The translations under genes and the position numbers were made by a program. From NCBI GenBank assembly GCA_964540475.1, contig CAZIMC010000002.1:111551-175550 (forward strand): a DNA stretch of 64,000 nucleotides, given 5' to 3'. Below are positions 1 through 13,040 of the stretch, one piece after another (within the stretch, counting starts at the first letter, position 1; each line of letters begins with the position of its first letter). This stretch comes from an uncultured Gammaproteobacteria bacterium (GTDB taxonomy: Bacteria > Patescibacteriota > Microgenomatia > UBA8517). A model generated the notes under the pieces. It ran no database searches, was not told the DNA's origin, and saw nothing but the letters and a program-made list of their open reading frames with translations.

Positions 1-88
1 ATGATGCTAAAACGCACCTTGAGCTAGATAATTTTGGATAAGAATGGCTTTTACAGCTAAAAGAACCGACTTAATGATAGAATAAGTT

Positions 89-709
89 ATGTCAAGTCCG
101 GCTCATGGAGACTACTTACCCAAAGCTAATAAAAATCAAATTAAAAAGTTCTCCCATTACTTAGCGCCTGGTGAAAAAATGCAGTATTTAACAGGTCTTT
201 CGCCACTTCATTTATTTCGATTCGGAGTGCTTCGCTACCTAGTCCCGGGTATTCCGGTAATTATTCTTACAGTCATCTTTATGCAAATTGCAGGGGTACA
301 CCTGGTGTTTGGATTATTACTTGGATATTTTCTGGCTTTTATAGTTTCACTAATAATGGTCTATTTTGAGGCGGCAGGAACTCAGTATATTCTTACAAAC
401 AAAAGGCTTATTATGCAACTTGGATACTTCAATGTAAGTTTAACTTCCGCGGTGTATGACAAAATAACGCACGTTGAAGTGCGGCAAGGCTTTGTCGAGC
501 GGGCAATTTATAAATTCGGGAAAGTGATTATCCACACGGCAGGCTCAAAAAACAAAGAAATAGTTCTTGATAACATTGCCCACCCCCTTAAATTCAAGAA
601 CCTAATGGAAAAGCTTATTGACGAAGCAGGACAAAAAGAGAAAAAAGCTAAAAATGAAAAATACAAACCAAAATGGCGCCAAACCAGAGGGTTTAAAAAG
701 ATACTTTAA
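89..709 (+). CDS. membrane protein with bacterial PH (bPH_2, YdbS/YdbT-like) domain
   Basis: 206-aa ORF. Two predicted TM helices (LVPGIPVIILTVIF / LLLGYFLAFIVSLIMVYF). These are followed by YILTNKRLI...KITHVEV...VIIHTAG, a pattern typical of bPH_2 domains. Lys-rich C-terminal tail. Confidence 0.5.
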   Translation: MSSPAHGDYLPKANKNQIKKFSHYLAPGEKMQYLTGLSPLHLFRFGVLRYLVPGIPVIILTVIFMQIAGVHLVFGLLLGYFLAFIVSLIMVYFEAAGTQYILTNKRLIMQLGYFNVSLTSAVYDKITHVEVRQGFVERAIYKFGKVIIHTAGSKNKEIVLDNIAHPLKFKNLMEKLIDEAGQKEKKAKNEKYKPKWRQTRGFKKIL

Positions 710-777
710 TAGTGTTTGACAACCTTTGGTGTATCAGGTATTTGTTTGAATGGCAGATTAGCCGTAAAATTGCTTTA

Positions 778-1254
778 ATGGCTGAAATAGAAACACAGTC
801 GGGCTTTCAAATTGAAACATATCGTCCTATATACGAAGACCAAGTGGTTGATCTTATCGATAATTCACTTAAGGAAATGGGAGTAATCAAGAAGGGTGAA
901 GAAAAAATTGACGATCCGGACCTAAGGAGGATAAGCCAAGTTTATTCGGGGCGAGGTTGCTTTTGGATAGCAATTGATGGGAACAGTGTAATAGGCACGG
1001 TTGCTATCAGAGATTTGGGTGATGGTACAGCTAAGTTAAACAGAATGTTTGTTAAGAGTGATCATCATGGGAAGGGAGTGGGTCAGAAATTATTAGATCG
1101 CGCTTTACAGCATGCCAAGGACGAAGGTTTCAGTGAGGTGATTTTAAATACGCATGTTAATATGAAGCGGGCACACAGGTTTTATGAGAAAAATGGTTTT
1201 GTGCGTGTTGGCCAAGATGAAGAAAAGTATCATTATAGATTAGTTCTCCAATAA
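778..1254 (+). CDS. GNAT family N-acetyltransferase
   Basis: Start moved to ATG at 778 (MAEIETQ). Acetyl-CoA binding motif region: VAIRD...MFVKSDHHGKGVGQKLLDRALQHA...HRFYEKNGF. Confidence 0.75.
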   Translation: MAEIETQSGFQIETYRPIYEDQVVDLIDNSLKEMGVIKKGEEKIDDPDLRRISQVYSGRGCFWIAIDGNSVIGTVAIRDLGDGTAKLNRMFVKSDHHGKGVGQKLLDRALQHAKDEGFSEVILNTHVNMKRAHRFYEKNGFVRVGQDEEKYHYRLVLQ

Positions 1255-1330
1255 CACATCTACGTCGGATTTGTAACGATTATCTAAAGGGACATTCAAC
1301 ATGCCACACATCTGGAGTATTTAGCAGTGG

Positions 1331-1825
1331 GTGTATAATGCTTACATGGATATAGAAAAGATGTTAGCGCGAGGGTTGCAGAAAGGATTTGGCGGAGGCA
1401 CTGTTCGTCTTGGTGTTGGCCGAGGTGGTTTTGATGTGGAATCGAGTCACTTAGAGGGCGGGGGCAGTGTATATCATGACGAGTGGGTTGCTGATAGAGT
1501 AGGTGGTGGGCAAGAGTTGGTGCAAGTTGGGGATAGGATATATACGAGGGTGTACGCAGGTGGGACAATAGCCGAGAGTGAATTAAAAAGATTGGGGGTG
1601 ACCAAAAAAGAGGTAATTGCTTATTTGAAAAGTCAGATATTGCAAAACGGAGACAAGATAAGACTTCACAAAGATTTTTATCCAGAACCAGAAGGTGATT
1701 GGGGATATACGTATAAAATTATTGATAGCGAAGAAGGTGTTCCAATGACCACTGGAAAGGAATGCATTTACTACAAGGGACAAATGGTTTTTACACACAT
1801 ATTCCTTCTTTGCCCAGTAGAGTAA
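1331..1825 (+). CDS. hypothetical protein (Gly-rich N-terminal half; possibly DUF5680-like)
   Basis: 164-aa ORF with no overlapping alternative. Motifs YHDEW and YTRVYAGG. Family assignment is from memory only. Confidence 0.4.
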   Translation: MYNAYMDIEKMLARGLQKGFGGGTVRLGVGRGGFDVESSHLEGGGSVYHDEWVADRVGGGQELVQVGDRIYTRVYAGGTIAESELKRLGVTKKEVIAYLKSQILQNGDKIRLHKDFYPEPEGDWGYTYKIIDSEEGVPMTTGKECIYYKGQMVFTHIFLLCPVE

Positions 1826-1837
1826 CAAAATAGTTAT

Positions 1838-2407
1838 ATGACTGAGAATGTAGAGCCAAGAGAAAATTCTGAGATTTTGCAGGAGTTTCGTATTCGGCGA
1901 GCAACTGCCGAGGAGGCTCAAATTGTTTGGGGAATAATCGAAACTTGTGCTAAATGGCTATCTCAAAGAGGGTTAGAACATTGGGCACGTTATTATACAA
2001 AGGACATGGTTGATAAAATGATCAAAAAGAAAGATGTATTCCTGGCACTTAGTGACGGCAAACCTGTTGGGACAATCACAACCGGAAGTAACCCTCCTAA
2101 GTATTATAATGAAGCCGGGTATGCGGGGAAATTTACAAATCCGGAAGACCCGGCTGTTTATATAACGGCTGTTGCAGTGTTACCCGCAGAACACAAACGG
2201 GGGTTTGCTGGTCAAATGCTTCAATATATTGAAGACGAGGCATATCTGGCTGGCGCAGACTGGCTCCGGTTAGATTGCCGCGCCGAAGTGCCTGGACTGG
2301 TTGGCTTTTACGAAAAAAGAGGGTTTGTTAAACTTGGATCTTCTCCTGTTGATGAAGGCGAAGACGGAACATACTGGTTGATGGAAAAGAAAATAGCTAA
2401 AGCTTAA
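1838..2407 (+). CDS. GNAT family N-acetyltransferase
   Basis: 189 aa. Segments ITAVAVLPAEHKRGFAGQMLQYIEDEA and GFYEKRGF are typical of a GNAT core. Confidence 0.7.
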   Translation: MTENVEPRENSEILQEFRIRRATAEEAQIVWGIIETCAKWLSQRGLEHWARYYTKDMVDKMIKKKDVFLALSDGKPVGTITTGSNPPKYYNEAGYAGKFTNPEDPAVYITAVAVLPAEHKRGFAGQMLQYIEDEAYLAGADWLRLDCRAEVPGLVGFYEKRGFVKLGSSPVDEGEDGTYWLMEKKIAKA

Positions 2408-2852
2408 TTTCTGTAATATCCCAAGGATGTTTGTTGAGATCTGAATAGCGAATCCACTTGGGAGTGACTTTGAAGTAGGTAATACCTTTTCTTGATGCCC
2501 AACGCTCAGCCATTGGATTTTTCATCCAATACAATTTTTGGTACTTTTCTTTATTTTCACCAAACACCTCTTCCGCAATTCCTTCGTACTGAACTGTAAT
2601 GTTTTCATCCCAACCAATGACAAATGAAACATTCCTATTTGTTTGTAGATTCTTAAATTTTCTTGAGTGATCATAAGTATCAAATATTAGCTCAAATTCA
2701 CCAGACTCACCAAACTCCAAGACCGCTGATTCTGGTTTGTTGTCTGGACCAACCGTAGAGATGACGGCCAATTTTTGTTTTTTGATGAAGTTTAATATTT
2801 CTTCTTTCGTAACCACCAACCAATTATAACAATTTAAGAAATTATTTCTCAT
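2397..2852 (-). CDS. pyridoxamine 5'-phosphate oxidase-like FMN-binding split-barrel protein
   Basis: 151 aa. N-terminal ILNFIKKQKLAVISTVGPDNKPESAVLEF is PNPOx-like. Start codon CAT at 2850-2852 was verified. Confidence 0.6.
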   Translation of the reverse strand: MRNNFLNCYNWLVVTKEEILNFIKKQKLAVISTVGPDNKPESAVLEFGESGEFELIFDTYDHSRKFKNLQTNRNVSFVIGWDENITVQYEGIAEEVFGENKEKYQKLYWMKNPMAERWASRKGITYFKVTPKWIRYSDLNKHPWDITEIKL

Positions 2853-2969
2853 GTCTATTGATATTCGAACTGAAGTATTGTAACATTTGCTTGGTTTTAC
2901 ATCTTAGAATTGGAAGGAGAAGAACAGTGGGAAGAGGAGTTAGGATTACATATAATTTTTATAGGTTGA

Positions 2970-2998
2970 CCGGAGGCATCTCGCCTACCGGTTTTTTT
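2970..2998 (+). terminator. Rho-independent terminator-like hairpin plus U-tract
   Basis: Stem ccggaggc / gcct(a)ccgg: 8 bp, GC-rich, 1-nt bulge. Loop atctc. Followed by seven T. Sits immediately upstream of the first gene of the putative island. Confidence 0.55.
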
Positions 2999-3011
2999 GT
3001 GGTGAAAGGGG

Positions 3012-3437
3012 GTGATTAAAGTGGGATTAAACATAATTGATGGCTTGAAATCAGCAGGCAAAGTATTACTCGAAGCTAATAAATTTGAACAATACCAACA
3101 AATAATTTTAGCCCAGCAAAAGATATTGAATCAGCAGGAAGAAATTGCTTTAAAGCAAGAAAAAATAAACTTACTTAAGAAACAAAATGAGAAATTGTCT
3201 GAAAAAATCAAAACCCAAAACAAGCTTATTTACGAGGAAAATTCATATTGGATAGTTGAAGACAATAACAAAATTGGACCATATTGTAGCAACTGTTGGG
3301 ATTCTAACACCCGAAGAGTCAGAATGCATGACAGAGATGGCGGTTACTATTTATGTCCAAGTTGTAAAACGGGAACACATATGAGTCCAGAATACACCAG
3401 TGTTAGAACAGTAAAACAACCGGAAAATTACTTCTAG
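3012..3437 (+). CDS. coiled-coil protein with C-terminal Cys4 zinc ribbon
   Basis: 141 aa. Q/K/E-rich heptad-like middle section. C-terminal CSNCW...CPSCK. Appears to use a non-ATG (GTG) start. Printed sequence and track differ by 1 nt here. Confidence 0.5.
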   Translation: MIKVGLNIIDGLKSAGKVLLEANKFEQYQQIILAQQKILNQQEEIALKQEKINLLKKQNEKLSEKIKTQNKLIYEENSYWIVEDNNKIGPYCSNCWDSNTRRVRMHDRDGGYYLCPSCKTGTHMSPEYTSVRTVKQPENYF

Positions 3438-3659
3438 ATGGTTTAATTGCTTTCTAAATTATAAAATAGTCTTATGTCCTTATCGGTTGGCACAAACAAC
3501 GAAAATCCTCATATTTATCCTTCCATTTTAGCTTCCACCCACCACAGCCTAGAAAAGAGAGAGTCATAGTCAACAGGGATGTTCGCGGACGAATAATTTT
3601 ATCCTTGCCTCCACCAGGAATTTATTAACCCTATAATCGTAGCAATCTGAACCTGAAAC

Positions 3660-3668
3660 TGCTATAAT
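3660..3668 (+). promoter_or_regulatory. extended -10 promoter element (TGcTATAAT) upstream of the TM/NTase pair
   Basis: Perfect TATAAT preceded by TGn, 27 nt upstream of the ATG at 3695. A second TATAAT lies at 3632-3637. AAGGA RBS at about 3683. Confidence 0.35.
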
Positions 3669-3694
3669 TTGCTCAACAGAATAAGGATTTATAT

Positions 3695-4198
3695 ATGACT
3701 TTTGTTGAGGTACTGGACTGGGTAGGGCGGATTTCCACAATTGTATTCATTTTAACCATTATTGCCGGAATTTATGCTTGGTTTAGAGGAATTTTACCGG
3801 CTTTACTAAGGCTTGGTAACGGATTGGCTAAACGGAAAATTGCTATTTACGCAAAGGGCGATAACTTCTCAAGTCTTAATGATTTGTTAATTGACTCCAA
3901 ATTGTTCCGAAAAGGAAATATAGTTAAAATTTCCAGTAAAAATGATTTGGGGAAAAGTGATGGCGCGACAATTTTTTTAGTTTACTGGCCTGACTGGAAA
4001 CAAGAAATTTTAGATATACTGAAAATTAAGAGGGACGCTTCTGCTTTAGTTGTGTATGCACCCCAAGAACAGGGTTTTATTCCCAAAGAGCAAATGGACA
4101 AGCTGAATGAACACCGCTGTGTTACTGTTACAAATTTTAGAGGCAGGTTAATCAATGATGTAGTGGTAAGTATGATTACCACTGGATATGACAAATAA
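3695..4198 (+). CDS. single-pass membrane protein with C-terminal Rossmann/flavodoxin-like (TIR-/SLOG-like?) domain; putative effector/sensor partner of the downstream NTase
   Basis: 167 aa. N-terminal TM helix (ISTIVFILTIIAGIYAWF). Alternating beta/alpha hydrophobic pattern: KIAIYAKGD, ATIFLVYWPDW, ALVVYAPQE. Ends 5 bp before the next gene. Confidence 0.5.
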   Translation: MTFVEVLDWVGRISTIVFILTIIAGIYAWFRGILPALLRLGNGLAKRKIAIYAKGDNFSSLNDLLIDSKLFRKGNIVKISSKNDLGKSDGATIFLVYWPDWKQEILDILKIKRDASALVVYAPQEQGFIPKEQMDKLNEHRCVTVTNFRGRLINDVVVSMITTGYDK

Positions 4199-4203
4199 TT
4201 ACA

Positions 4204-4980
4204 ATGACACCTTTGGAATATGTAAACCAAGTACTAAATAGATATAACACATTTTCTGCGACTTTTTTACCTCAAACACCCGTGTACCAATTAATGTTTC
4301 AGCTAATAAACTATTGGGTTACCATGCACAATTTACAAGGATATTTATATGTTTCAGGTTCTAATGCCAAAGGTACAGCTATTGCGGGGGAAGCTGATGT
4401 TGACTTGTTTGTATCGCTTCACCCCAATGCGCTAAATGCCCGGACACTTGCTGACATCTATAATTCCTTAGCACAATTTTTAAGGCAACGGGGTTATTCC
4501 GTGAGAAGACAAAACGTATCCGTAAGAATCAACCATGGTGGGGTTGAAGTAGATATAGTCCCTGGTGTTAAATTTGGTGGTAATACAAATGACCATTGGT
4601 TGCATGTAACCAAGTCAGGTCGGGATAGGATAAAAACAAATATAGATGTGCATATTACTAGAGTAGCAAACTCAGGTAGGATACCAGAAATCCGATTAAC
4701 AAAAATTTGGCGAAGAAATAAAGGGTTAGATTTTCCTTCAATATATCTTGAGGAATGTGTTATCAATTGCTTATCAGGTTACAGATTTGGTAATACTGAT
4801 GCTAACTTTTTGAGAGTACTAGAATACTTATCGACTAACTTTGTAAACGCGAGAATAGTAGACCCAGCAAATACAGCTAATGTTATTTCTGACGATTTGA
4901 CATTACACGAGAAACAGTTAATCAGCTCAACTGCAAATTTCAGTAGATTTCAACCAAATTGGGGAACAATCGTTTGGTAA
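4204..4980 (+). CDS. cGAS/DncV-like (CD-NTase) or SMODS-type nucleotidyltransferase
   Basis: 258 aa. Pol-beta NTase signature GSNAKGTAIAGEADVDLFV (GS-x11-DxD). Third acidic residue sits in VEVDIVPG (hDhhP strand). The pattern is shared with OAS/cGAS/DncV/SMODS. Confidence 0.65.
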   Translation: MTPLEYVNQVLNRYNTFSATFLPQTPVYQLMFQLINYWVTMHNLQGYLYVSGSNAKGTAIAGEADVDLFVSLHPNALNARTLADIYNSLAQFLRQRGYSVRRQNVSVRINHGGVEVDIVPGVKFGGNTNDHWLHVTKSGRDRIKTNIDVHITRVANSGRIPEIRLTKIWRRNKGLDFPSIYLEECVINCLSGYRFGNTDANFLRVLEYLSTNFVNARIVDPANTANVISDDLTLHEKQLISSTANFSRFQPNWGTIVW

Positions 4981-5187
4981 ATGCTTGTCCTCGCTAGTTT
5001 AGTGGTTTAACCCGTTGTTAGTGCTTCCATATACTTTTACACGCTAGGGATTTCAAGGGTTTTTAAGGGTAATACAGGGTGTAACAGGGTATATCTAGGT
5101 TCTACACAAACTTCAATTTTCTATATTCTAGACTTTCTAGTTGGTTTTTACCCAAAGCAAGGATTAACCAGAGTAAATAGAGCGTAA

Positions 5188-6462
5188 ATGAGATATAATT
5201 ACAATATGTCAGAAACACCACCAAATGTAGATAATATACCGATACCTAATAAACCTACTGCTCCAAAAGAATTAGGGAGAGTTGATTTTGCAGAAACCCC
5301 GTTACCTTTTGATGTAAAAGCTGCACAAACCCTCTTTCCAGACTCAAAGCACCTTAAATTACCTGATGGGAATGAGTATATTCTCGATAAAAATGGGAGA
5401 ACAATTATTCTTTTTGAGAAACCCACAGAGCAAGGATTTACTTCGGTTTACTCACCTTTACAACCAAGAGAATTACGACAACAAATCGCCCGTCTCCCAG
5501 AAGAGCAACAGCGTCAATTAGCACAATTACTTCACTTGCCGGATGTTGAGGCAGCAGATATTGTTTCTGCTGCTACCGAAGCAGGAGGTTTAGAAGATTT
5601 ATTAGTAAAGTTAAAAAAAAGACCCGTGACTTCGACTGTGGCGCAACACCGAGAACCTCGTGTTCCTGGTTCAGGACAAGGCATACATACAGAAAGCTCT
5701 GTTAGAGCAGACTTGCCACCAGCAGATTTACCAGATAATCATTTTGTTCAATTAAGCCGTGAAGAGTTTGAAGCGCGCAGAAGAGAACAATGGGAAGCTA
5801 TAAAAGAATTAGATGATAATGACCCTCGCAGAGTTGTTTATCTCAGACGATTTACAGAAGAGTACCGTTCATCCGTACCATTTAATCCAAAGCTTACAGC
5901 AGCTAGGGAAAACCCTTATCAATACTATGTTGTTGATACTTCAAAAATGGGTGAATTGCCGAAAGTGGAGCCATACAGACCATCTCTTGATATACCGAAA
6001 GGAGCAAAGGTTGGTATGGTAATTGGCTACCATCATTTAGAAAAACCGTGGGGTCATTTATTTACAGAGATGCTACAGCAGCAAGCTCAATATGACCCAA
6101 GTCAAATAGAATTTATTTTTATTCAAAATAAAGAAAAGCCAACGGGTGAGCAATCACCTGCGTCAGACCGTGAAATACAGGAAGCAGTAAGGACAAGAGG
6201 GATTACGCATGTAATTGATGTGCATGAGCAACTTGCAACATTAAATCATTATATGGACTCGCATGATAACCCTCAGTTTAGAGAAGCAAGAAAAAGTGGT
6301 TCACAAGGTGAATACACACTTGATCCGTTTGTTCCAACCTGGATGATTGAACAGTATTATCAAGGGCGTGTGTACCCACAATTACAATATGGTGTAAATG
6401 ACCAAATTAAAAAGGTGGAAGCATTGGTCAAAGGTATAGGTAAAGAACCTCAAAAACAGTAA
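5188..6462 (+). CDS. hypothetical protein (island cargo)
   Basis: 424-aa ORF with no recognisable motif. Q/E/R-rich middle. Lies within the recombinase-bounded island. Confidence 0.5.
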   Translation: MRYNYNMSETPPNVDNIPIPNKPTAPKELGRVDFAETPLPFDVKAAQTLFPDSKHLKLPDGNEYILDKNGRTIILFEKPTEQGFTSVYSPLQPRELRQQIARLPEEQQRQLAQLLHLPDVEAADIVSAATEAGGLEDLLVKLKKRPVTSTVAQHREPRVPGSGQGIHTESSVRADLPPADLPDNHFVQLSREEFEARRREQWEAIKELDDNDPRRVVYLRRFTEEYRSSVPFNPKLTAARENPYQYYVVDTSKMGELPKVEPYRPSLDIPKGAKVGMVIGYHHLEKPWGHLFTEMLQQQAQYDPSQIEFIFIQNKEKPTGEQSPASDREIQEAVRTRGITHVIDVHEQLATLNHYMDSHDNPQFREARKSGSQGEYTLDPFVPTWMIEQYYQGRVYPQLQYGVNDQIKKVEALVKGIGKEPQKQ

Positions 6463-6595
6463 GTATTTTTTGCCCCAGCGATTTTTCAAATAACCATCCA
6501 TCTCCATGATACAAAAACTTTTCGACTCCAATTAGATGCGTTTTATTTAGTTTAGCTGTATTTCACTTTGTCCCGTTATGTCGGTCATTTCTGTA

Positions 6596-6639
6596 TTGAC
6601 AACTGCCCATTTTATTTACTAATATTGTTACATAACAAT
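6596..6639 (+). promoter_or_regulatory. sigma70-like promoter (TTGACA-N18-TAATAT) overlapped by a 16-bp palindromic operator (ATTGTTACATAACAAT)
   Basis: Read directly from the sequence. A second inverted repeat, GTCAAC-ac-GTTGAC, lies at 6672-6685. Both are upstream of the 6774 gene. Confidence 0.35.
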
Positions 6640-6773
6640 TCAATAATTTGTCCGTTTAGTTTTGCCGTACAGTCAACACGTTGACGCTTTTTAAGGCAAT
6701 CGGAGTAGGACGCATTCAGCCCTCAAGGCGATTGTTGCTTACAATTGATTGCTTTTTTATTGGCAAAATAAAT

Positions 6774-7028
6774 ATGGACGAAAAATCAATATACTTTATT
6801 ACTGATAATTTGATACTTGCTTCTGTTCTCAAGAGCGAAGGTTTCCAAATTGTTGGGATAAATAAGAAAAATCCTCGCCACTCATATTTTGAATTCCTCA
6901 AGGATGATGAATTGGTCGAAGTAGTCAAACAATTCTGGTCTGACACCCTCTTAATTAGTCCCAAGCGTTTTGCATCTTCTATGAAGGAGCTTAAAACCAT
7001 GCTGTATGACCAATCATTTAGCATGTAG
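6774..7028 (+). CDS. small phage-associated protein (DUF5659-like)
   Basis: 84 aa from the ATG at 6774 (MDEKSIYFITDNLILASVL...). Family assignment is tentative. Confidence 0.4.
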   Translation: MDEKSIYFITDNLILASVLKSEGFQIVGINKKNPRHSYFEFLKDDELVEVVKQFWSDTLLISPKRFASSMKELKTMLYDQSFSM

Positions 7029-7030
7029 GT

Positions 7031-7243
7031 TTGCTGGGACAAAATATGAATAACAATAACAATCGAAACCTCAATGTCTTTGTCAAACCCAATGGTAACA
7101 GAGGATTGAATTATCGTTACCAGAAACTATCCACTAAAAGGGATAGGTCAGACTTTGCCAACTTTTGGTATTGGGCTCATGCCCTGCTTGACTCAATTGG
7201 CAGGGAAAGATTTGAGCCTAGTAGGCATGTTTATAAACTATGA
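7031..7243 (+). CDS. small Asn-rich hypothetical protein
   Basis: 70 aa. Its stop overlaps the start of the next gene (7240). Low complexity (NNNNNRN). Confidence 0.3.
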   Translation: MLGQNMNNNNNRNLNVFVKPNGNRGLNYRYQKLSTKRDRSDFANFWYWAHALLDSIGRERFEPSRHVYKL

Positions 7244-7776
7244 GAAGAATAAAACTAACCCAGAATAGATACGCTTTAGTGGATGACGAAGATTATGATT
7301 ATTTGAGCCAATACAAATGGGCTTATAACCGAAATAGGGGTTATGCATTTCGAAATTTACCCAGAGGTAAGGGTATACGCAAATCAGTATATATGCATAG
7401 AGAGATTATTAGGGCTTTGCCTGGTCAAGAAGTAGACCACATAAATAATATCAAGTTAGACAACCGTAAAAAAAATTTAAGAATATGTTCGCACATAGAA
7501 AATCAAAGAAACCTACCCCTATCAAGAAATACATCTGGTTATAGAGGAGTCTCCTGGTATAAGCCTACAGGCAAGTGGAGAGCAACTATAAAAGTGAACA
7601 AGAAATTTAAGCATTTAGGATTATTTGAAAACATAATTGATGCAGCAAAGGCATTCGACAGGGCAGCAAAAATTTACCACGGCGGTTATGCAAGGTTAAA
7701 CTTTGGTCAAAGACAAGAATATGCTATTACGTCTTATCTGACCTATGTTAATGGTTTATCAGCATTAGGTAGCTAA
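7240..7776 (+). CDS. HNH endonuclease fused to AP2 DNA-binding domain (phage-type homing endonuclease)
   Basis: HNH_3 motif VDHINNIKLDNRKKNLRICSHIENQRN. AP2 domain YRGVSWYKPTGKWRATIKVNKKFKHLGLFENIIDAAKAFDRAAKIYHG. Confidence 0.8.
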   Translation: MRRIKLTQNRYALVDDEDYDYLSQYKWAYNRNRGYAFRNLPRGKGIRKSVYMHREIIRALPGQEVDHINNIKLDNRKKNLRICSHIENQRNLPLSRNTSGYRGVSWYKPTGKWRATIKVNKKFKHLGLFENIIDAAKAFDRAAKIYHGGYARLNFGQRQEYAITSYLTYVNGLSALGS

Positions 7777-7823
7777 CCAGACTAGCCTTATGTGATGTAA
7801 GGCCTTAATATCAATAAAAAATT

Positions 7824-8066
7824 ATGAAAAGAGTGATGGAACCGAAATTATTATTCCGATATTTGGATAATGAAGATAGCGAAACTCGCCTTAAAACCGC
7901 ATATTGGAGGATATTTCGACAGGCACGAAAGAACTTAATTCGAAGAAAGAAAATGTTGGGGATAGATTATCTCCATACATATGAACTAATACCCGTGAAG
8001 AAAATAAAAATAAGAATAATTAACCCTGTTTTATACGACAGGGACAAAATAAGAATTTATGGATAA
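7824..8066 (+). CDS. small basic protein, possible recombination directionality factor
   Basis: 80 aa, Arg/Lys-rich. Lies immediately upstream of, and overlaps by 8 bp, the serine recombinase gene. Confidence 0.35.
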   Translation: MKRVMEPKLLFRYLDNEDSETRLKTAYWRIFRQARKNLIRRKKMLGIDYLHTYELIPVKKIKIRIINPVLYDRDKIRIYG

Positions 8067-9669
8067 TCATCTATCAAATGTATCGGGTTACTATGCCCGT
8101 GTTTCAACAGGCAGGCAGGAAAACGAAGAAACAATAGAGTCCCAGAAAGCAGAAATTAAGGAAAGAATAAAAAAGGATAATAATTATATTTCCCCTGAAC
8201 ATGAATTCTTTGATGACGGATGGACTGGAACAATACTAGCCAGACCTGGACTCGATGCCTTAAGAGATACAGTAAAGCGAAAAGAGATTAAGTATTTATA
8301 TGTTTACGATTTAGGTCGATTGAGCCGAGATTTTACTTATCAGTTATTGCTTCTAAAAGAGTTTGAGGACGAAGGGGTAAAGGTAATATCGCTACACGAT
8401 ATTAACCCTGAGAATGGTGAGCAAAACTTTATGCGTAATATCATGGGTGCCTTCCACGATTATGAACGTATCAAAATTGCGGAACGGTTCAGGCGAGGTA
8501 AATTGCATAAGGCAAAGAATGGCCTTCTAATCAATGGTCAAGGACTATACGGTTATACCTACATAAAAAAGACAGATAATAAACCACCCAAAATTGTGCT
8601 AAATGCAAAAGAAGCAGAGGTGGTGAAACTAATTTTCAATTGGTTAGGTAATGAAGGATATTCCATTAAGGAAATTGTCAGAAAGCTTTACGAGAAGGGA
8701 ATACAGCCGAGAAAGAACAAAAGCGAGTTTTGGAGTACAGGACCAATTCTAAGGCTTCTTCGGTGTGACTCTTATATTACAGGGGTGATTTACTATAACA
8801 AATCAGAAGCGATTGAAACTAAAGTACCTCGAAAAGAAGAAAAGTACAGGAAGATAAAAAAGGGGAGCAGACGGGTAAGGCCAAGGGCAGAATGGTATCC
8901 CTACAAAGTACCGAAAATCCTAGATGATTGGGATTTATTCAACCGAGTCCAAAAGATATTGGACAACAATCGAAGGCATGGACCGAGAAGAAAATCTTAT
9001 GACTATTTGTTATCAGGTCTAATATTTTGTGAGTGTGGTCAAAGGCGGGCAGGAAATGGGAAGAATAACGGGCATTACTATTATCGGTGTACTGACAGAA
9101 TTCTCAGGCATCCCTTACCTCCTGAATGTAAATCACCGGCCTTAAATGCCAGAGTACTCGATAAAGTGTTTTGTGATGAGCTTACGAAATACCTCACAAA
9201 TTCCAAGAACATCAACGAGATTGCAGAAGACTACCTCAAAGCTCAAGCGGTTGATGAAAGCGAGGAAAGAGAAAAGCAAGCACACCTTCATAACATTTCA
9301 AAGCTTGAGGAAGAAGAAAGACGCTGTATCAGGCTTCATGTTGAGGGAGAAATTGAGTTCGAGGAATTTAAGGAACTAAAAAGTGATATAAACAAACGAA
9401 GAAAGGATGAAGAAAACGAGCTAAAACGACTAAATGAGCTAACAAAGGATATAAATATCGATAACGTTGAGCTACAAGAATTCTGCCAAGAGGTGAAAGA
9501 AGTGTTACAGAGCCTCAATTACTCAAGTAAGTCTTTGTTAATTAGAGACGTAATTGATAAAATAGTCATGAAAGGAACAACAAATGAGGTTGAAGTTATG
9601 GGGCATATACCCATAAATCACCTAAATATCGGGTATGAACTTATCAGTAGGAATAGTGGGCCTACCTAA
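8059..9669 (+). CDS. large serine recombinase (integrase)
   Basis: N-terminal resolvase catalytic domain (YARVSTGRQENEE with the catalytic Ser region). Central recombinase domain. Zn-ribbon (CECG...C..C). C-terminal coiled coil. 536 aa. Confidence 0.9.
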   Translation: MDNHLSNVSGYYARVSTGRQENEETIESQKAEIKERIKKDNNYISPEHEFFDDGWTGTILARPGLDALRDTVKRKEIKYLYVYDLGRLSRDFTYQLLLLKEFEDEGVKVISLHDINPENGEQNFMRNIMGAFHDYERIKIAERFRRGKLHKAKNGLLINGQGLYGYTYIKKTDNKPPKIVLNAKEAEVVKLIFNWLGNEGYSIKEIVRKLYEKGIQPRKNKSEFWSTGPILRLLRCDSYITGVIYYNKSEAIETKVPRKEEKYRKIKKGSRRVRPRAEWYPYKVPKILDDWDLFNRVQKILDNNRRHGPRRKSYDYLLSGLIFCECGQRRAGNGKNNGHYYYRCTDRILRHPLPPECKSPALNARVLDKVFCDELTKYLTNSKNINEIAEDYLKAQAVDESEEREKQAHLHNISKLEEEERRCIRLHVEGEIEFEEFKELKSDINKRRKDEENELKRLNELTKDINIDNVELQEFCQEVKEVLQSLNYSSKSLLIRDVIDKIVMKGTTNEVEVMGHIPINHLNIGYELISRNSGPT

Positions 9670-10738
9670 CGTTGGAAAGTCCACACTTTTTAATGCGCTT
9701 TTGAAAAAGCAGCAAGCATATGTTGCTAATTTTCCTTTTGCAACGATCGAACCGAATATTGGAGTCGTGCCAGTACCAGACAATCGTCTATCGCAATTGT
9801 CGCAAGCGGTCAAAGGTTCAGAAGGGCTTGACGTTTTGCCGCCCGGGGTTCCTGCGACTGTTGAGTTCGTAGACATTGCAGGGTTAATCGCAGGAGCACA
9901 TAAAGGCGAAGGTTTGGGGAATAAATTTCTAAGCCATATTAGGGAAGTTGATGCGATTTGTCATGTCTTACGGGTTTTTAGTGATAAGGATATTGTGCGT
10001 GACGGGCAAATAACACCCGACTTGGATTTTGAAACTATTGAAACTGAGTTGGCGCTTGCTGATCTGCAGACATTAGAAAACCAGAAAGACCCGGGAGGCT
10101 CGCAGGACAAAGAATTACGAAAAAGATGGGAATTAGTACTAAAATTAAAGGAATCGATCTCAAAAGGTAAGCCGGCAAGAAGTATTGTTTTATCGGATGA
10201 AGAGACAAAAATCCTAAAAGAACTCTCATTACTTACAGCAAAACCAATTTTGATTGTACTTAATGTCGATGAGGACGATTTAAAACGAAGAGGCGAGATC
10301 GAAGAACATTTTGCAATGCGGCTTAAAGTCAATAAAGAGCAGGTTGTTACAATTTGTGCAAAGACCGAAAGCCAATTAGCTGATCTTACTGACGAGGAGC
10401 AGGCAGTTTATTTAAGTGAATTAGGGGTATCTGACTCAGGATTATCACGACTGATTCAAAAAGCATTTACAACACTTGGACTTATTACTTTTCTGACAGC
10501 TGGTGAAAAGGAAGTTCGGGCCTGGACCATTAAAGCGGGAATTACGGCACAAGAGGCCTCGGGGGTTATCCACACGGATTTTATGAAAAAGTTTATAAAG
10601 GCAGACGTTTGCAATTTCAACGATTTTATATCTGCCCCGGGATGGAAGATTGCCCGAGAGAAAGGGCTGGTCCGTTCAGAAGGCCGGGACTATATTGTAA
10701 AAGAGGCGGATGTAATTGAGTTTAAAATTGGAAGCTGA
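9635..10738 (+). CDS. ychF: ribosome-binding ATPase YchF (Obg family GTPase)
   Basis: G1 motif GIVGLPNVGKSTLFNAL. C-terminal TGS domain. 367 aa. Confidence 0.9.
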   Translation: MNLSVGIVGLPNVGKSTLFNALLKKQQAYVANFPFATIEPNIGVVPVPDNRLSQLSQAVKGSEGLDVLPPGVPATVEFVDIAGLIAGAHKGEGLGNKFLSHIREVDAICHVLRVFSDKDIVRDGQITPDLDFETIETELALADLQTLENQKDPGGSQDKELRKRWELVLKLKESISKGKPARSIVLSDEETKILKELSLLTAKPILIVLNVDEDDLKRRGEIEEHFAMRLKVNKEQVVTICAKTESQLADLTDEEQAVYLSELGVSDSGLSRLIQKAFTTLGLITFLTAGEKEVRAWTIKAGITAQEASGVIHTDFMKKFIKADVCNFNDFISAPGWKIAREKGLVRSEGRDYIVKEADVIEFKIGS

Positions 10739-10753
10739 TATACTAACTCACAT

Positions 10754-11041
10754 ATGCAAAAGTATGAATTAACAGTTGTATTACCGGGAAAAACCTCAGC
10801 TGCCAAAAAGAAGGCATTTGTTGAAAAACTGGAAAAGACCGTTGATGCGATGGAGGGAAAGCTGGGCAAACTTGAAGATTGGGGAGAAAAACCTTTAGCG
10901 TACGAAATTAAGAAAAATGAAGTTGGAAATTATCTTCATTTTCCTTTAGAATTAATATCAACAAAAGCAGGGCAGATTGACGCAAAGCTTAAAGTTGATG
11001 ACGAAGTATTAAGATATTTATTAGTTAGAGTTGAGAAATAA
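10754..11041 (+). CDS. rpsF: 30S ribosomal protein S6
   Basis: 95 aa. MQKYELTVVL...PLAYEIKK. Conserved rpsF-ssb-rpsR order. Confidence 0.9.
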   Translation: MQKYELTVVLPGKTSAAKKKAFVEKLEKTVDAMEGKLGKLEDWGEKPLAYEIKKNEVGNYLHFPLELISTKAGQIDAKLKVDDEVLRYLLVRVEK

Positions 11042-11536
11042 ATGGCAAGAAGCTTAAATAAAGTAACCTTAATTGGAAATCTGACCCGCGATCCGGAGAT
11101 GCGCTACACACCTTCTGGCAGTGCAGTCTGCACATTCGGTATTGCAACAAATAGGCAATGGGTTACCGAGTCAGGAGAGAAAAAAGAGGATGCAGAATTT
11201 CACCGGGTTGTCGCTTGGAATAAATTAGCAGAAATCTGCTCGCAACTATTAACTAAGGGTAGAAAGGTTTATGTCGAAGGGCGCTTGCAAACTCGAAGCT
11301 GGACTGGACAAGACAATCAGCAAAGACAAACCACAGAGGTTGTTATAACTGACATGATACTCCTGGATTCAAGGCAGGGTGGAGCAGGTCCGGCACCAGT
11401 TGATGACTTTGATATACCAGAAGAGTTTACTAACGAACCTCCGGTAGAAGCGGCTGGGGAAGAAGCGAAGTCTAAGAAGGATTCTGCAAAAAAGGCTGAA
11501 AAAAAAGAGCCTGAGGATGAGGAAATACCATTCTGA
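11042..11536 (+). CDS. ssb: single-stranded DNA-binding protein
   Basis: OB-fold N-terminus (NKVTLIGNLTRDPEMRYT). Acidic tail ending DEEIPF. Confidence 0.9.
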   Translation: MARSLNKVTLIGNLTRDPEMRYTPSGSAVCTFGIATNRQWVTESGEKKEDAEFHRVVAWNKLAEICSQLLTKGRKVYVEGRLQTRSWTGQDNQQRQTTEVVITDMILLDSRQGGAGPAPVDDFDIPEEFTNEPPVEAAGEEAKSKKDSAKKAEKKEPEDEEIPF

Positions 11537-11778
11537 TGAAACAAAAAAGAAGAACAATTAAATTAAAACCAGTTCCTGCAAACTGTCCATTTTGTAAGAC
11601 AAAAACAGAACCGGATTATAAAAATTACCAAGAAATCAGTAAGTTTATAACTGAGAGAGGTAAAATTTTGGGTAAGGCACGTACTGGTGTTTGCACCAAA
11701 CATCAAAGAAGAATAGCCATAGCAATAAAACGGGCTAGGCATTTGGCACTTTTGCCGTTCACAGGCGCGCTTCAATAG
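11536..11778 (+). CDS. rpsR: 30S ribosomal protein S18
   Basis: 80 aa. CPFC...KNYQEISKFITERGKILGKARTG is the S18 signature. Confidence 0.9.
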   Translation: MKQKRRTIKLKPVPANCPFCKTKTEPDYKNYQEISKFITERGKILGKARTGVCTKHQRRIAIAIKRARHLALLPFTGALQ

Positions 11779-11795
11779 TATAAAATTCAACAAGA

Positions 11796-13040
11796 ATGAA
11801 TTTGCCCAGAATTAATTTTATAAAGTTGAGAAGGCTTTTGCTTTTTTCAATCATTGTATTGGGTTTATTTAGCGGTGGGTATTATGTTGGGATAAACGGC
11901 TATAAACTTTCGCTTACTCCTCAGTCCCGTAATATTGAAATAGTTAGAGATATACCTCCTGGTCGCGAGAACGTAAACTTTTCTTTGTTTTGGCGAGTCT
12001 GGGACACACTTTCAACATCATATTTTGACAAGGCTAAGCTTGATCCGGCAAAAATGGTGTATGGTGCAATCTCCGGTATGGTTGATGCACTCGGCGACCC
12101 TTACACTTCCTTCCTTCCACCTCAGGAAAACAAGGTGGTACAAGAGGACTTAAGTGGCAGTTTTGAAGGTGTTGGAATTCAAATCGGTTTTAAAGGGACT
12201 CAACTGGCAGTTTTGGCACCACTACCAGGGTCACCGGCCGAGGCGGTAGGTGTTCGGGCAGGGGACTACATTATTGGTATAAAAGATGAAGCCAAGAATA
12301 TCGATCGCGGAACAGTTGGGATTAATTTAAGCGAGGCAGTTCAAATTATACGTGGACCAGCCAATTCAAGAGTCACCTTGACGCTTTTGCGGGACGGAGA
12401 GGAGGAGCCGAGGGTTGTTGATATAACAAGAAGAAAGATTGAAGTTCCAAGTTTGACACTGGAATATTTGGAGGATGGGACGATTGCGCACGTTAAACTT
12501 TTAAAGTTTGCGGGCGAAACTAAAGGCGAGTGGGATAAAACAGTGAGGGGATTAATTGGCAGGAATAATCTGCAAGGAATTGTCCTGGATCTTCGAAACA
12601 ACCCAGGAGGCTATATGGATTCGGCGGTTGACATTGCCTCAGAATTTTTACCCAATGGTTCATTGATTGTAACTGAGGAGAAAGGGACAGGAGAGAAAAT
12701 TGAATTCAAGGTTAGACGCCTTGGCTTACTTACAAAGACGCCGGTTGTAGTAATAATTAACGAGGGGAGTGCATCTGCTTCTGAGATTCTGGCGGGCGCA
12801 TTGCGGGATATTGCCAAAATTCAATTGGTGGGTGAAAAATCATTTGGTAAGGGAACAATTCAGGAGCCGAGACAATTGGAAGGCGGGAGCGGACTGCATA
12901 TTACAATTGCCAGATGGCTAACCCCATCGGGGTACTGGGTAAACGAACAGGGTTTAAAACCGGATATTGAGGTTACTGATGATGAAAACACAGAAGAAGA
13001 CGAGCAGTTGCAGGAAGCTTTGAAAGTGTTAAAATCTTAA
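11796..13040 (+). CDS. carboxyl-terminal processing protease (S41 family) with PDZ domain
   Basis: N-terminal TM segment. PDZ region (GVGIQIGF...LPGSPAEAVGVRAGDYIIGI). S41 catalytic region (VVVIINEGSASASEILAGAL; KSFGKGT). Confidence 0.85.
   Translation: MNLPRINFIKLRRLLLFSIIVLGLFSGGYYVGINGYKLSLTPQSRNIEIVRDIPPGRENVNFSLFWRVWDTLSTSYFDKAKLDPAKMVYGAISGMVDALGDPYTSFLPPQENKVVQEDLSGSFEGVGIQIGFKGTQLAVLAPLPGSPAEAVGVRAGDYIIGIKDEAKNIDRGTVGINLSEAVQIIRGPANSRVTLTLLRDGEEEPRVVDITRRKIEVPSLTLEYLEDGTIAHVKLLKFAGETKGEWDKTVRGLIGRNNLQGIVLDLRNNPGGYMDSAVDIASEFLPNGSLIVTEEKGTGEKIEFKVRRLGLLTKTPVVVIINEGSASASEILAGALRDIAKIQLVGEKSFGKGTIQEPRQLEGGSGLHITIARWLTPSGYWVNEQGLKPDIEVTDDENTEEDEQLQEALKVLKS

What the first reader, a model, noticed from the sequence alone, without database searches (positions are those of the whole stretch)
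2970..9669. Integrase-bounded accessory island inserted at the 5' end of ychF
A large serine recombinase (8059-9669) ends 35 bp inside the annotated ychF start. It is preceded by a small basic ORF (possible RDF), an HNH-AP2 endonuclease, a DUF5659-like gene and several hypotheticals. The far edge is marked by a strong intrinsic terminator (2970-2998) immediately before the first cargo gene. This pattern indicates an integrated phage remnant or integrative element. Its attachment site would lie in the ychF 5' region, with the element re-supplying the ychF start.
Basis: partly seen in the sequence, partly recalled or inferred. Interest (0 to 1): 0.6.

Follow-up and report, generated by a model that had tools for sequence, protein, structure and literature searches.

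The report
Mobile defence island splitting ychF start
A 6.2-kb mobile element driven by a large serine recombinase sits inside codon 6 of the housekeeping gene ychF in a Woesebacteria-like (CPR) genome; it rebuilds the gene's start and carries a CBASS anti-phage system, and inserting cuts off the conserved last 45 codons of its own recombinase gene.

Summary
The finding is real and its core interpretation holds, but the left edge is wrong. The element spans about 3491-9651, not 2970-9669. An orphan ychF promoter plus the first 5.7 codons (MSLSVG) lies at 3462-3490 (attL). The element-supplied start MNLSVG lies at 9635-9651 (attR). The two junctions share only GG, and the rebuilt attP is symmetric around it.

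Related recombinases (73-96% identical) in 13 other distinct contigs all end inside ychF. One element has a 96%-identical recombinase and 87.6%-identical DNA, yet its host YchF is only 57% identical. That indicates recent horizontal transfer, not a core gene.

The "hypotheticals" at 3695-4980 are a type I CBASS system (1TM effector plus cyclase). In the sister element a TIR cassette fills the same slot, and more distant relatives carry type I restriction-modification.

Unexpectedly, attP lies inside the recombinase gene. The 45 codons right of attL are under purifying selection in the recombinase frame. Their motif recurs beside orphan ychF starts in ten other loci, and unsplit 573-579-aa recombinases exist in metagenomes.

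The terminator at 2968-3000 and ORF 3012-3437 lie outside the element. This is a new variant of a known kind; how the element moves between cells is unknown.

The parts
3462..3517 (+). attL. The host B arm is the orphan native ychF -10 box TAAAAT (3462-3467) plus ATG 3474 and codons MSLSV. The core is GG at 3489-3490. The element P' arm is 3491-3517 and ends in ATATTTA (3511-3517).
   Evidence: Identity with the left ends of independent elements in other hosts (L081, L096) begins exactly after GG. The -10 box sits 6 nt before ATG, as in empty-site relatives.
3474..3566 (+). Orphan ychF start fused out of frame to element DNA. It is a 30-codon ORF (MSLSVGTNNENPHIY...), probably a meaningless by-product.
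   Evidence: Sequence reading and the translation (the 'orphan-ychF frame' has stops and no conservation).
3491..3628 (+). Severed 3' end of the recombinase gene: 45 codons (HKQRKSSYLSFHFSFHPPQPRKERVIVNRDVRGRIILSLPPPGIY) plus stop. It is in frame with 8059-9651 only across the rejoined attP.
   Evidence: against L096, 14 synonymous vs 4 non-synonymous codon differences in this frame, and 0-1 vs 13-15 in the other two frames. Differences by codon position are 4/2/14. This is the only frame open in all three elements; the motif recurs after orphan ychF starts in ten other loci; the same tail occurs on unsplit LSRs P0054, P0087 and P0180.
3660..3668 (+). Backbone promoter-like TGcTATAAT just left of the cassette slot.
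   Evidence: Sequence. It is conserved between the window and L096 up to the swap boundary at 3675/3676. Function is inferred.
3676..5053 (+). Exchangeable defence-cassette slot, here holding a type I CBASS system.
   Evidence: the window matches L096 at 3487-3675 (85%) and 5054-9699 (87.6%), but the interval between is unrelated. In L096 it holds a ThsB-like TIR gene plus a 214-aa gene. In L081 the two flanking blocks are about 80 bp apart.
3695..4198 (+). CBASS effector with one N-terminal transmembrane helix (167 aa).
   Evidence: PADLOC PDLC00664 'Effector 1TM', E 1.2e-60, covering residues 6-167.
4204..4980 (+). CD-NTase oligonucleotide cyclase (258 aa). The motifs GS...DVD and VDIV are present.
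   Evidence: PADLOC PDLC00803 'Cyclase', E 1e-74, full length. NCBIfam CBASS cyclase 2e-13, below cut-off. PDB CD-NTase 9sa4, E 1e-4. The family of about 254-aa SMODS enzymes occurs in many phyla.
5040..5204 (+). Conserved non-coding block at the right edge of the slot. AGGGT occurs four times at exactly 10-nt spacing (5056, 5066, 5076, 5086), followed by TTCTATATTCTAGA and then TATAAT (5194-5199). It is a candidate regulated promoter or protein-binding array.
   Evidence: The block is conserved in L081, L087, L088 and L096, always just upstream of the next cargo operon. Function was not tested.
5188..6462 (+). Backbone gene of unknown function (424 aa; the real start may be ATG 5206). The C-terminal domain has a Zn-hydrolase-like fold with an HxxE...H motif.
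6774..7028 (+). DUF5659 gene, conserved across the element family.
   Evidence: Pfam PF18903, E 9.5e-11. Homologues in L081 and L084-L089. A promoter-like site at 6596-6625 lies upstream.
7031..7243 (+). 70-aa ORF of unknown function.
   Evidence: No family hit. A 65-aa gene sits at the same position in L096.
7240..7776 (+). HNH endonuclease with an AP2 DNA-binding domain.
   Evidence: Pfam HNH_3 1.1e-06 and AP2 8e-07. phrog_99 6.6e-41. Also present in L096.
7824..8066 (+). 80-aa basic protein overlapping the recombinase start by 8 nt. It is a candidate accessory or directionality factor.
   Evidence: Homologues (56-79% identity) sit immediately upstream of the LSR in L081-L090 and L094, and at 43% in L010. 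No family hit. The role is inferred from position only.
8059..9669 (+). Large serine recombinase in its integrated (truncated) form. Codons 1-531 are element-encoded. The last five codons (NSGPT) and the stop are read from host ychF DNA.
   Evidence: The catalytic YARVST motif is invariant in the family alignment. C-terminal tails after ...ISR differ between hosts.
9535..9563 (+). Promoter-like TTGTTA-17-TGaTAAAAT inside the recombinase 3' end, facing ychF.
   Evidence: Both boxes are invariant in 13 distinct family members, including at synonymous positions. Function is inferred.
9623..9678 (+). attR. The element P arm is 9623-9649: TAATAT-type dyad motif TAAATAT (9623-9629), then a new ychF ATG at 9635 and codons MNLSV. 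The core is GG at 9650-9651. The host B' arm starts at 9652.
   Evidence: in 17 attR copies the P arm is nearly invariant up to ...CAGTA GG, after which the sequence is host-specific. TAAATAT starts 27 nt left of GG, and ATATTTA at attL ends 27 nt right of GG.
9635..10738 (+). ychF, intact (367 aa), with its first five codons supplied by the element.
   Evidence: Pfam MMR_HSR1 and YchF-GTPase_C. It aligns over residues 1-367 with relatives. The downstream rpsF-ssb-rpsR-S41-HtrA synteny is conserved.

Best explanation
Window 3491-9651 is a complete 6.16-kb integrative element of a Woesebacteria-like CPR bacterium.

Integration (mechanism follows the established LSR pathway; not shown experimentally here). 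Its large serine recombinase joined a roughly 56-bp attP, symmetric around a GG dinucleotide, to an attB spanning the first codons of ychF. The crossover was at the first two bases of codon 6. The P arm carries a mimic of the ychF start (ATG AAC TTA TCA GTA), so ychF stays intact. A conserved promoter-like site inside the recombinase 3' end, or read-through, probably expresses it (inferred). The native ychF promoter and first codons are left orphaned at the far end.

Cargo. An exchangeable cassette slot next to the left end holds a two-gene type I CBASS system. By analogy with characterised CBASS, the cyclase would make a nucleotide signal on phage infection and the 1TM effector would kill the cell.

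Split recombinase gene. attP lies inside the recombinase ORF. The free circular form would encode a 576-aa enzyme. Integration severs its conserved 45-aa C-terminal tail and replaces it with a few host-encoded residues. Whether this changes activity or directionality is inferred, not shown.

Spread. The element family moves between distantly related Microgenomates hosts. The vehicle for cell-to-cell transfer is unknown.
For: Shown by sequence comparison:
- attL remnant and attR.
- Three independent attL and 17 attR copies switch between element and host sequence exactly at GG.
- Dyad symmetry of the rebuilt attP, with TAAATAT/ATATTTA 27 nt to either side of GG.
- Empty sites exist in relatives.
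- All close LSR relatives checked sit at ychF (L081-L096).
- LSR similarity is decoupled from host similarity (96% vs 57%). Element DNA is 87.6% identical over 4.67 kb between hosts whose S41/HtrA proteins are 48-55% identical to each other's.
- CBASS assignment.
- Cassette swap to TIR and R-M cargo in relatives.
- Tail coding signal, recurrence of the tail motif in frame +2 after orphan ychF starts in ten other loci, reconstructed full-length ORFs in four elements, and natural unsplit LSRs carrying the same tail.
- The LSR has all three family domains and an invariant catalytic Ser motif.
Against: - No excised circle or empty site of this particular strain could be retrieved. The window's genome is not retrievable by exact look-up, and no attP junction was found in viral contigs. 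Present-day mobility in this genome is therefore inferred.
- No transfer, replication or packaging genes were recognised.
- No directionality factor can be identified by sequence.
- The AF2 model of an unsplit LSR gives no confident structure for the tail (pLDDT 35-50).
- NCBIfam CBASS models score below their curated cut-offs.
- CBASS function and ychF expression after insertion are untested.
- The compositional difference from the host is small.
Confidence: 0.85

Rival explanations
1. The recombinase is a vertically inherited, domesticated core gene upstream of ychF (for example a regulator or inverter of ychF expression), and the region is not a mobile insert.
For: An LSR ends inside ychF in many Woesebacteria genomes, with identities down to 35%. 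That could look like ancient conservation. A defective pneumococcal prophage next to ychF has been reported to control ychF expression (PMC8637289).
Against: Empty sites occur in close relatives. The orphan ychF start is at attL. LSR identity does not track host identity (96% vs 57%, 84% vs 53%, 52% vs 66%). Cargo differs completely between elements.
Confidence: 0.03
2. The region is a decayed prophage remnant whose integrase happens to survive. It can no longer move.
For: The HNH-AP2 endonuclease and integrase match phage protein families. No excised form was found. LSR-less remnants do exist at the same site in other genomes (L003, L007, L021, L027, L033).
Against: No capsid, tail, terminase, lysis or replication genes are present. 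There is no DNA match to 50,697 phage records and no LSR relative in IMG/VR. A sister element of the same size and gene order, with a 96%-identical LSR, sits in a distant host. Both att sites, the LSR ORF and the severed tail ORF are intact.
Confidence: 0.07
3. The element is a phage satellite or mobilisable island that depends on a helper (phage or conjugative element) for transfer. The unknown backbone genes (5188-6462, DUF5659, 7031-7243, HNH-AP2) serve hijacking rather than defence.
For: The element is small and lacks its own transfer genes. It carries defence cargo in a variable slot, as P4-like satellites do (PMC9122126, listed). A relative (L089) has a weak Phage_CRI replication-initiator hit. 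Hosts are very divergent.
Against: No primase, replicase, packaging or capsid-redirecting gene was recognised in the window element. No helper has been identified. CPR bacteria carry competence genes (a Competence/ComEC-type gene is seen in L097), so uptake of free DNA is an alternative route.
Confidence: 0.3
4. The conserved 45-codon stretch right of attL is not part of the recombinase. It is an independent small gene or a DNA-level binding site conserved for recombination.
For: The first 27 nt are the P' arm and must be conserved as DNA. AF2 gives no confident fold for the tail. The integrated, tail-less LSR must still be able to excise if the element moves on.
Against: In the window this frame has no start codon between the upstream stop (3467-3469) and the crossover (sequence). 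Substitutions are concentrated at third positions of the LSR frame well beyond the 27-nt arm. The peptide motif, not the DNA, is conserved across LSR families only 35-50% identical. It is found fused to LSR bodies in P0054, P0087 and P0180.
Confidence: 0.1

Closest known systems
Large-serine-recombinase integrative elements that insert into a protein-coding gene (Listeria phage A118 in comK, Bacillus SPbeta and skin elements; recalled from my own knowledge)
   Same: Same enzyme family and domain set. Short att sites with imperfect dyad symmetry and a 2-nt crossover. The recombinase gene sits next to the att site.
   Different: Those elements interrupt the target gene, which is restored only by excision. 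Here the element carries a mimic of the gene's start, so the target stays functional, as tRNA-targeting islands do. This element is only 6.2 kb and has no phage genes.
Pipolins with LSRs integrated at ychF (PMC11551731)
   Same: ychF is the LSR target, and the elements serve as platforms for exchangeable defence systems.
   Different: No piPolB polymerase or any polymerase is found here. The host phylum is different (CPR), and the element is much smaller. Whether pipolin LSRs use the same codon-6 site or are related was not tested.
Pneumococcal prophage PPH005 next to ychF (PMC8637289)
   Same: An integrase gene lies immediately upstream of ychF. The prophage has been reported to influence ychF expression.
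   Different: Its attB is a 26-bp intergenic site between a DUF951 gene and ychF. It is a full-size (or defective) prophage. The integrase type was not compared.
Myxophage Mx8 IntP/IntX and archaeal SSV-type 'suicidal' integrases (PMC6070905; PMC8371274)
   Same: attP lies inside the integrase coding sequence, so integration changes or splits the integrase. In Mx8 this gives a new 3' end and altered specificity.
   Different: Those are tyrosine recombinases. Here the enzyme is a serine recombinase and only a 45-aa C-terminal tail is removed. I did not find this arrangement described for serine integrases in the literature searches, which is not proof of absence.
Defence hotspots in P2/P4-like elements and core-genome defence hotspots (PMC9122126, PMC10250203, PMC10121019; listed)
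   Same: A fixed slot in a conserved mobile backbone holds different defence systems in different copies (CBASS, TIR, type I R-M).
   Different: The backbone, recombinase and host clade are unrelated. The slot is bounded by a backbone promoter and an AGGGT x4 array whose role is unknown.
Type I CBASS (cyclase plus transmembrane effector)
   Same: A CD-NTase with catalytic GS...DxD motifs sits next to a 1TM effector, and no Cap2/Cap3-type accessory genes are present.
   Different: The effector precedes the cyclase. The cyclase is compact (258 aa). The system is carried on a recombinase-driven mini-island in a CPR bacterium.

Membership tests
Large serine recombinase (serine integrase) | N-terminal resolvase-type catalytic domain with a nucleophilic serine | tested here: met
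   PF00239, E 1.7e-27. YARVST, with S16 aligned to an invariant column. Matches gamma-delta resolvase and the TP901-1 integrase catalytic domain in the PDB.
Large serine recombinase (serine integrase) | Recombinase domain plus a zinc-ribbon domain with a coiled-coil insertion | tested here: met
   PF07508 4.3e-15 and PF13408 1.2e-09. Long paired helices after the zinc ribbon appear in the AF2 model of relative P0054.
Large serine recombinase (serine integrase) | Short att sites (about 40-56 bp) with imperfect dyad symmetry and exchange at a central dinucleotide | tested here: met
   Element and host sequence switch exactly at GG in 3 attL and 17 attR copies. TAAATAT/ATATTTA lie 27 nt either side. 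Cleavage chemistry was not tested.
Large serine recombinase (serine integrase) | Separate recombination directionality factor for excision | not testable with these tools
   The conserved 80-aa basic ORF at 7824-8066 is a positional candidate only. RDFs have no common sequence signature.
Type I CBASS | CD-NTase cyclase with nucleotidyltransferase catalytic motifs | tested here: met
   PADLOC cyclase model 1e-74, full length. GS...DVD and VDIV seen in the sequence. NCBIfam equivalogs score only 50 bits against a cut-off of 200, so it belongs to a different cyclase clade from those models.
Type I CBASS | Adjacent effector gene and absence of Cap2/Cap3 or other signature accessory genes | tested here: met
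   1TM effector model 1.2e-60. The two genes are 5 nt apart. No other PADLOC hits in the element.
Type I CBASS | Protection against phage through a cyclic nucleotide signal | not testable with these tools
   Needs experiments.
Prophage or prophage remnant | Phage structural, packaging, lysis or replication genes | tested here: not met
   None found in Pfam, PHROGs or NCBIfam scans. No DNA match to phage records. No LSR relatives in IMG/VR.
Pipolin | Primer-independent family-B DNA polymerase (piPolB) | tested here: not met
   No polymerase domain in any element ORF.
Integrative conjugative or mobilisable element | Relaxase/oriT, coupling protein or type IV secretion genes | tested here: not met
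   No such domains found. No match to 72,556 plasmid records. Unknown ORFs leave a small residual doubt.
Integrase gene split by its own attP (Mx8 / SSV type) | attP inside the integrase ORF, so that integration alters the protein | tested here: met
   The family as defined so far comprises tyrosine recombinases. This is an analogue, not a member.

The most novel reading that the evidence does not exclude
Serine integrases of this ychF-targeting group use self-truncation as a built-in switch. The free element makes a full-length enzyme whose conserved 45-aa tail (F.F...P.P.KER.I..RD..GRI..S) is needed for, or biases towards, integration. Insertion removes the tail, giving an enzyme with different activity or directionality, or one that needs a full-length copy in trans. 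This would be a serine-recombinase counterpart of Mx8 IntP/IntX and of the archaeal 'suicidal' integrases. It would operate at a multi-family insertion hotspot that distributes defence systems among CPR bacteria.
Probability: 0.3. Interest if true: 0.8.

Novelty: new variant of a known kind. Interest (0 to 1): 0.62.

Why it matters
CPR bacteria have tiny genomes and no genetic tools, and little is known about how they exchange genes. This element family gives several concrete openings.

- **A defined recombination system.** The recombinase, a roughly 56-bp attP and an attB in a universally conserved gene start are all specified. The system evidently works across hosts whose housekeeping proteins are only about 50-57% identical, so it is a candidate integration tool for CPR and elsewhere.
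- **A route for defence-system spread.** It shows how CBASS, TIR and restriction-modification systems are shuffled among ultra-small bacteria.
- **A testable regulatory idea.** A serine integrase whose gene is cut by its own integration would be a simple, previously unexploited way to make integration self-limiting. Serine integrases are widely used in genome engineering, where directionality control is a central problem.

If the tail has no functional effect, the finding is still a well-resolved but fairly ordinary integrative defence island.

Tried and rejected
- **Repeat search.** A generic search over 1-12000 found no att repeat, because only 2 nt are shared. The remnant was found by searching for '-10 box + ATG + MSLSVG' patterns.
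- **Rfam.** A scan of 1-12000 gave nothing, so the hairpin region at 2886-3012 is not a known RNA. Its full fold is no better than shuffles (z -0.10).
- **Left-edge synteny.** Upstream synteny could not define the left edge. Window genes 1-2852 have no homologues in relatives' flanks.
- **Exact look-ups.** Look-ups of the window's own LSR, YchF and cyclase failed, although 100%-identical proteins exist on a 217,748-bp NCBI contig.
- **Circular junction.** The predicted junction was not found in viral contigs.
- **Retrieving unsplit LSRs.** IMG/VR searches with the LSR, P0054 and P0087 found nothing.
- **Structure of the tail.** AF2 of unsplit P0054 gave a low-confidence tail. The afdb50 fold library was unavailable.
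- **The 424-aa protein.** The idea that it is a replication initiator was dropped. Its fold resembles Zn hydrolases, and a homologue lies elsewhere in a chromosome next to HicAB.
- **P-arm TAAATA as a leaderless -10 mimic.** It sits 6 nt before the ATG like the native TAAAAT, but it is a poor -10 match. It also cannot be separated from its role as a recombinase-binding motif.

Full report
**What is in the window**

- A 536-aa large serine recombinase (LSR) at 8059-9669 has Resolvase, Recombinase and zinc-ribbon domains. Its last 35 nt overlap the start of an intact ychF (9635-10738).
- An 80-aa basic ORF lies at 7824-8066, an HNH+AP2 protein at 7240-7776 and a DUF5659 gene at 6681/6774-7028.
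- Downstream, ychF-rpsF-ssb-rpsR-S41 protease-HtrA is conserved synteny in essentially all Microgenomates loci retrieved.
- The best YchF relatives are Woesebacteria MAGs at 66-72% identity. The host is therefore a CPR/Patescibacteria bacterium with no close sequenced relative among the representative genomes.

**Where the element really ends**

A generic repeat search found no att repeat. The relatives gave the clue. In empty-site genomes ychF is preceded directly by a -10 box, gtTAAAATagcttc-ATG. In genomes with an LSR the sequence before the ATG is quite different.

Searching for that '-10 box + ATG + MSLSVG' signature found a second copy in the window at 3462-3490: TAAAATagtcttATGTCCTTATCGGTTGG, followed by unrelated sequence. 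This is the displaced native ychF promoter and first 5.7 codons, that is, attL.

The functional ychF begins ATGAACTTATCAGTAGG|AATAGTGGG, so its first five codons come from the element. The two junctions share only GG (3489-3490 and 9650-9651).

Three independent lines fix the crossover there.
- The left ends of related elements in two other hosts (L081, L096) have different host codons (MSSYGLSVG, MGLQIG). They become identical to the window exactly after GG, at CACAAACAACGAA.
- In 17 attR copies the element arm is nearly invariant up to ...CAGTA GG. After that it varies at host synonymous positions.
- The rebuilt attP is symmetric about GG. TAAATAT starts 27 nt to the left (9623) and ATATTTA ends 27 nt to the right (3517).

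This is the anatomy expected of a serine-integrase attP with a non-palindromic central dinucleotide (established knowledge of the family). The element is therefore 3491-9651, 6.16 kb.

The hairpin at 2968-2993 with its U7 tract is a plausible terminator. Both it and ORF 3012-3437 lie on the host side of attL and are not part of the element.

**Is it mobile or a conserved core gene?**

- Empty sites exist (L001, L002, L005, L013, L015, L016 and others).
- The close LSR relatives fetched from the protein database or the metagenome scan cover 13 distinct contigs, with 73-96% LSR identity. Every one that extends far enough ends inside ychF.
- LSR similarity is decoupled from host similarity. L096 has an LSR 96% identical to the window's but YchF 57%, S41 48% and HtrA 55%. 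L091 is 84% vs 53%. L010 and L004 have closer hosts (66-71%) but LSRs only 50-52% identical.
- At the DNA level, L096 matches window 5054-9699 at 87.6% over 4.67 kb.

This is recent horizontal transfer across deep host divergence. Composition agrees only weakly: 37.5% GC against 41.1 ± 1.5% for equal-sized windows.

**Cargo**

PADLOC identifies 3695-4198 as a CBASS '1TM effector' (E 1.2e-60). It identifies 4204-4980 as a CBASS oligonucleotide cyclase (E 1e-74, full length).
- The cyclase carries the GS...DVD and VDIV motifs.
- It is distantly similar to solved CD-NTases.
- It belongs to a widespread family of compact SMODS enzymes.
- No other defence model hits the element, so this is a two-gene type I CBASS.

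In L096 the backbone is the same, but the interval corresponding to 3676-5053 is replaced by a ThsB-like TIR gene plus a 214-aa gene. In L081 the two flanking blocks are nearly adjacent. Relatives with 73-86% LSR identity carry type I restriction-modification operons downstream of the same conserved block.

The slot has defined edges.
- On the left is a conserved TGcTATAAT (3660-3668).
- On the right is a conserved non-coding block with AGGGT repeated four times at exactly 10-nt spacing (5056-5090), ending in a TATAAT.
- I read this block as a promoter/operator region, but its function is untested.

The remaining backbone genes are listed below.
- A 424-aa protein (5188-6462) has no family match and 31 homologues, of which the only source-named one is a Daviesbacteria (CPR) protein. 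Its C-terminal domain has a Zn-hydrolase-like fold and an HxxE...H motif.
- The others are DUF5659, a 70-aa ORF, HNH-AP2, and the 80-aa ORF that always precedes the LSR.
- No replication, transfer or virion genes were found. There is no DNA match to phage or plasmid collections.

**The recombinase gene is split by integration**

The LSR stop codon (9667-9669) lies beyond the crossover. Its last five codons (NSGPT) are therefore read from host ychF DNA. Accordingly, the tails of related LSRs after the shared ...GYELISR differ between hosts, giving proteins of 536-573 aa.

Reading from the LSR across the rejoined attP into 3491 gives 45 more codons before a stop: HKQRKSSYLSFHFSFHPPQPRKERVIVNRDVRGRIILSLPPPGIY.

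Several results show that this stretch is coding in that frame.
- Against L096 there are 14 synonymous and 4 non-synonymous codon differences in this frame, compared with 0-1 and 13-15 in the other two frames. Differences by codon position are 4/2/14. It is the only frame open in all three elements.
- In the integrated state this frame has no start codon upstream.
- A tblastn search with the tail finds the motif F.F...P.P.KER.I..RD..GRI..S immediately after orphan ychF starts in L003, L007, L011, L018, L033 and L040. It also finds it after the hybrid junction in L093, and in L006 (four copies) and L034. Wherever an orphan ATG is present, the motif lies in frame +2 relative to it, which is the LSR frame. 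These belong to LSR families only 35-50% identical to the window's.
- Reconstructing the ORF in four elements gives tails of 44-52 aa.
- Metagenomes contain unsplit LSRs with exactly this tail fused after ...GYEP.SR: P0054 (579 aa, on contigs of 6.2 and 8.0 kb), P0087 (573 aa) and fragment P0180.

I conclude that attP lies inside the LSR gene, about 45 codons from its end, and that integration severs a conserved C-terminal tail.

The same principle is documented for the tyrosine integrases of myxophage Mx8, where it changes specificity (PMC6070905). It is also documented for archaeal SSV-type elements (PMC8371274). My literature searches did not turn it up for serine integrases. What the tail does is unknown, and an AF2 model gave no confident structure for it.

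**How ychF is kept working**

The element's P arm encodes both the LSR C-terminus (GYELISR) and, in another frame, a new ychF start (MNLSV). The protein changes only at residue 2 (S to N).

A promoter-like TTGTTA-17-TGaTAAAAT lies at 9535-9563 inside the LSR 3' end. Both boxes are invariant in 13 distinct family members, even at synonymous sites. It is the best candidate for driving ychF after insertion, but this is an inference.

**Wider context**

Among the roughly 50 Microgenomates ychF loci with usable upstream sequence:
- 7 have an LSR ending in ychF;
- about 12 more have orphan ychF starts or LSR-tail remnants without an LSR, some several in tandem;
- L093 shows one element inserted next to another.

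A second att family uses the arm AAAGTTGGGATA. The first codons of ychF are thus a hotspot used by several LSR lineages.

ychF has already been reported as an LSR target for pipolins (PMC11551731). A pneumococcal prophage integrates beside it (PMC8637289). CPR defence repertoires have been surveyed (PMC12259885). The kind of element is therefore known. What is new here is the precise site, the CPR host range, the cassette slot and the split serine-integrase gene.

**Limits**

- No excised circle or empty site of this strain was retrievable.
- The means of cell-to-cell transfer is unknown.
- The RDF assignment, promoter functions, CBASS activity and any regulatory role of the tail are inferences.

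**Verdict**

The element is a new variant of a known kind, with a moderately high interest score because of the split serine-integrase gene and the evidence for inter-lineage transfer in CPR.

Noticed in passing
window 2968-3000 and 3012-3437: A stable hairpin with a U7 tract sits just upstream of a 141-aa coiled-coil/zinc-ribbon ORF that matches phrog_1244 (E 1.4e-06). Both lie outside the element on the host side of attL. What the hairpin terminates is unclear, since a promoter-like site at 2858-2886 precedes it.
   Followed up: partly
L093 10001-16684: Tandem accretion. A truncated window-type LSR (residues 166-533) ends in its P arm. That arm is fused to the P' arm/tail of a different element family (5.6 kb) lying between it and ychF.
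   Followed up: partly
L006 87-4025; L021 5180 and 6231; L007 6414 and 9031: Several LSR-tail or orphan-ychF-start remnants lie in series upstream of one ychF, suggesting repeated insertion and decay at the same site.
   Followed up: no
L003 6908-10001; L021 5180-10001; L023 1697-5465; L033 7938-10001: Intervals between an orphan ychF start and ychF that lack a recombinase carry non-defence genes (Na/Ca exchanger, Kelch/PKD protein, two GH130 enzymes, AAA+DUF4143 ATPase). In L003 both copies of the ychF start share an identical 33-nt stretch that includes the -10 box.
   Followed up: partly
L084-L089 (about 8300-9430 in each): The R-M-carrying relatives also encode an HTH_17 (Xis-like) protein and a tyrosine recombinase just upstream of the LSR module. 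L089/L094 add a weak Phage_CRI replication-initiator hit. The window element has HNH-AP2 at that position instead.
   Followed up: no
window 5056-5090: AGGGT is repeated four times at exactly 10-nt spacing at the right edge of the cassette slot. It is conserved in L081, L087, L088 and L096. It could be an operator, an iteron-like origin or a cassette-exchange site.
   Followed up: partly
window 10739-10754, 11781-11796, 5194-5208; ychF starts of L001, L002, L005, L013, L015: -10-like boxes lie 6-9 nt before start codons with no Shine-Dalgarno sequence. This suggests leaderless mRNAs are common in these Woesebacteria.
   Followed up: no
L004 3226-4846: The LSR next to ychF appears frameshifted into two ORFs, so it is possibly an inactivated copy. 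The contig is labelled Methanofastidiosum, and several other loci are labelled Gammaproteobacteria, although their gene content is Woesebacteria-like. These are probably binning or label errors.
   Followed up: no
window 1-2852: A bPH-domain protein, two GNAT acetyltransferases, an unknown ORF and a PNPOx-like gene have no counterparts upstream of ychF in any relative. The region left of attL is itself variable.
   Followed up: no
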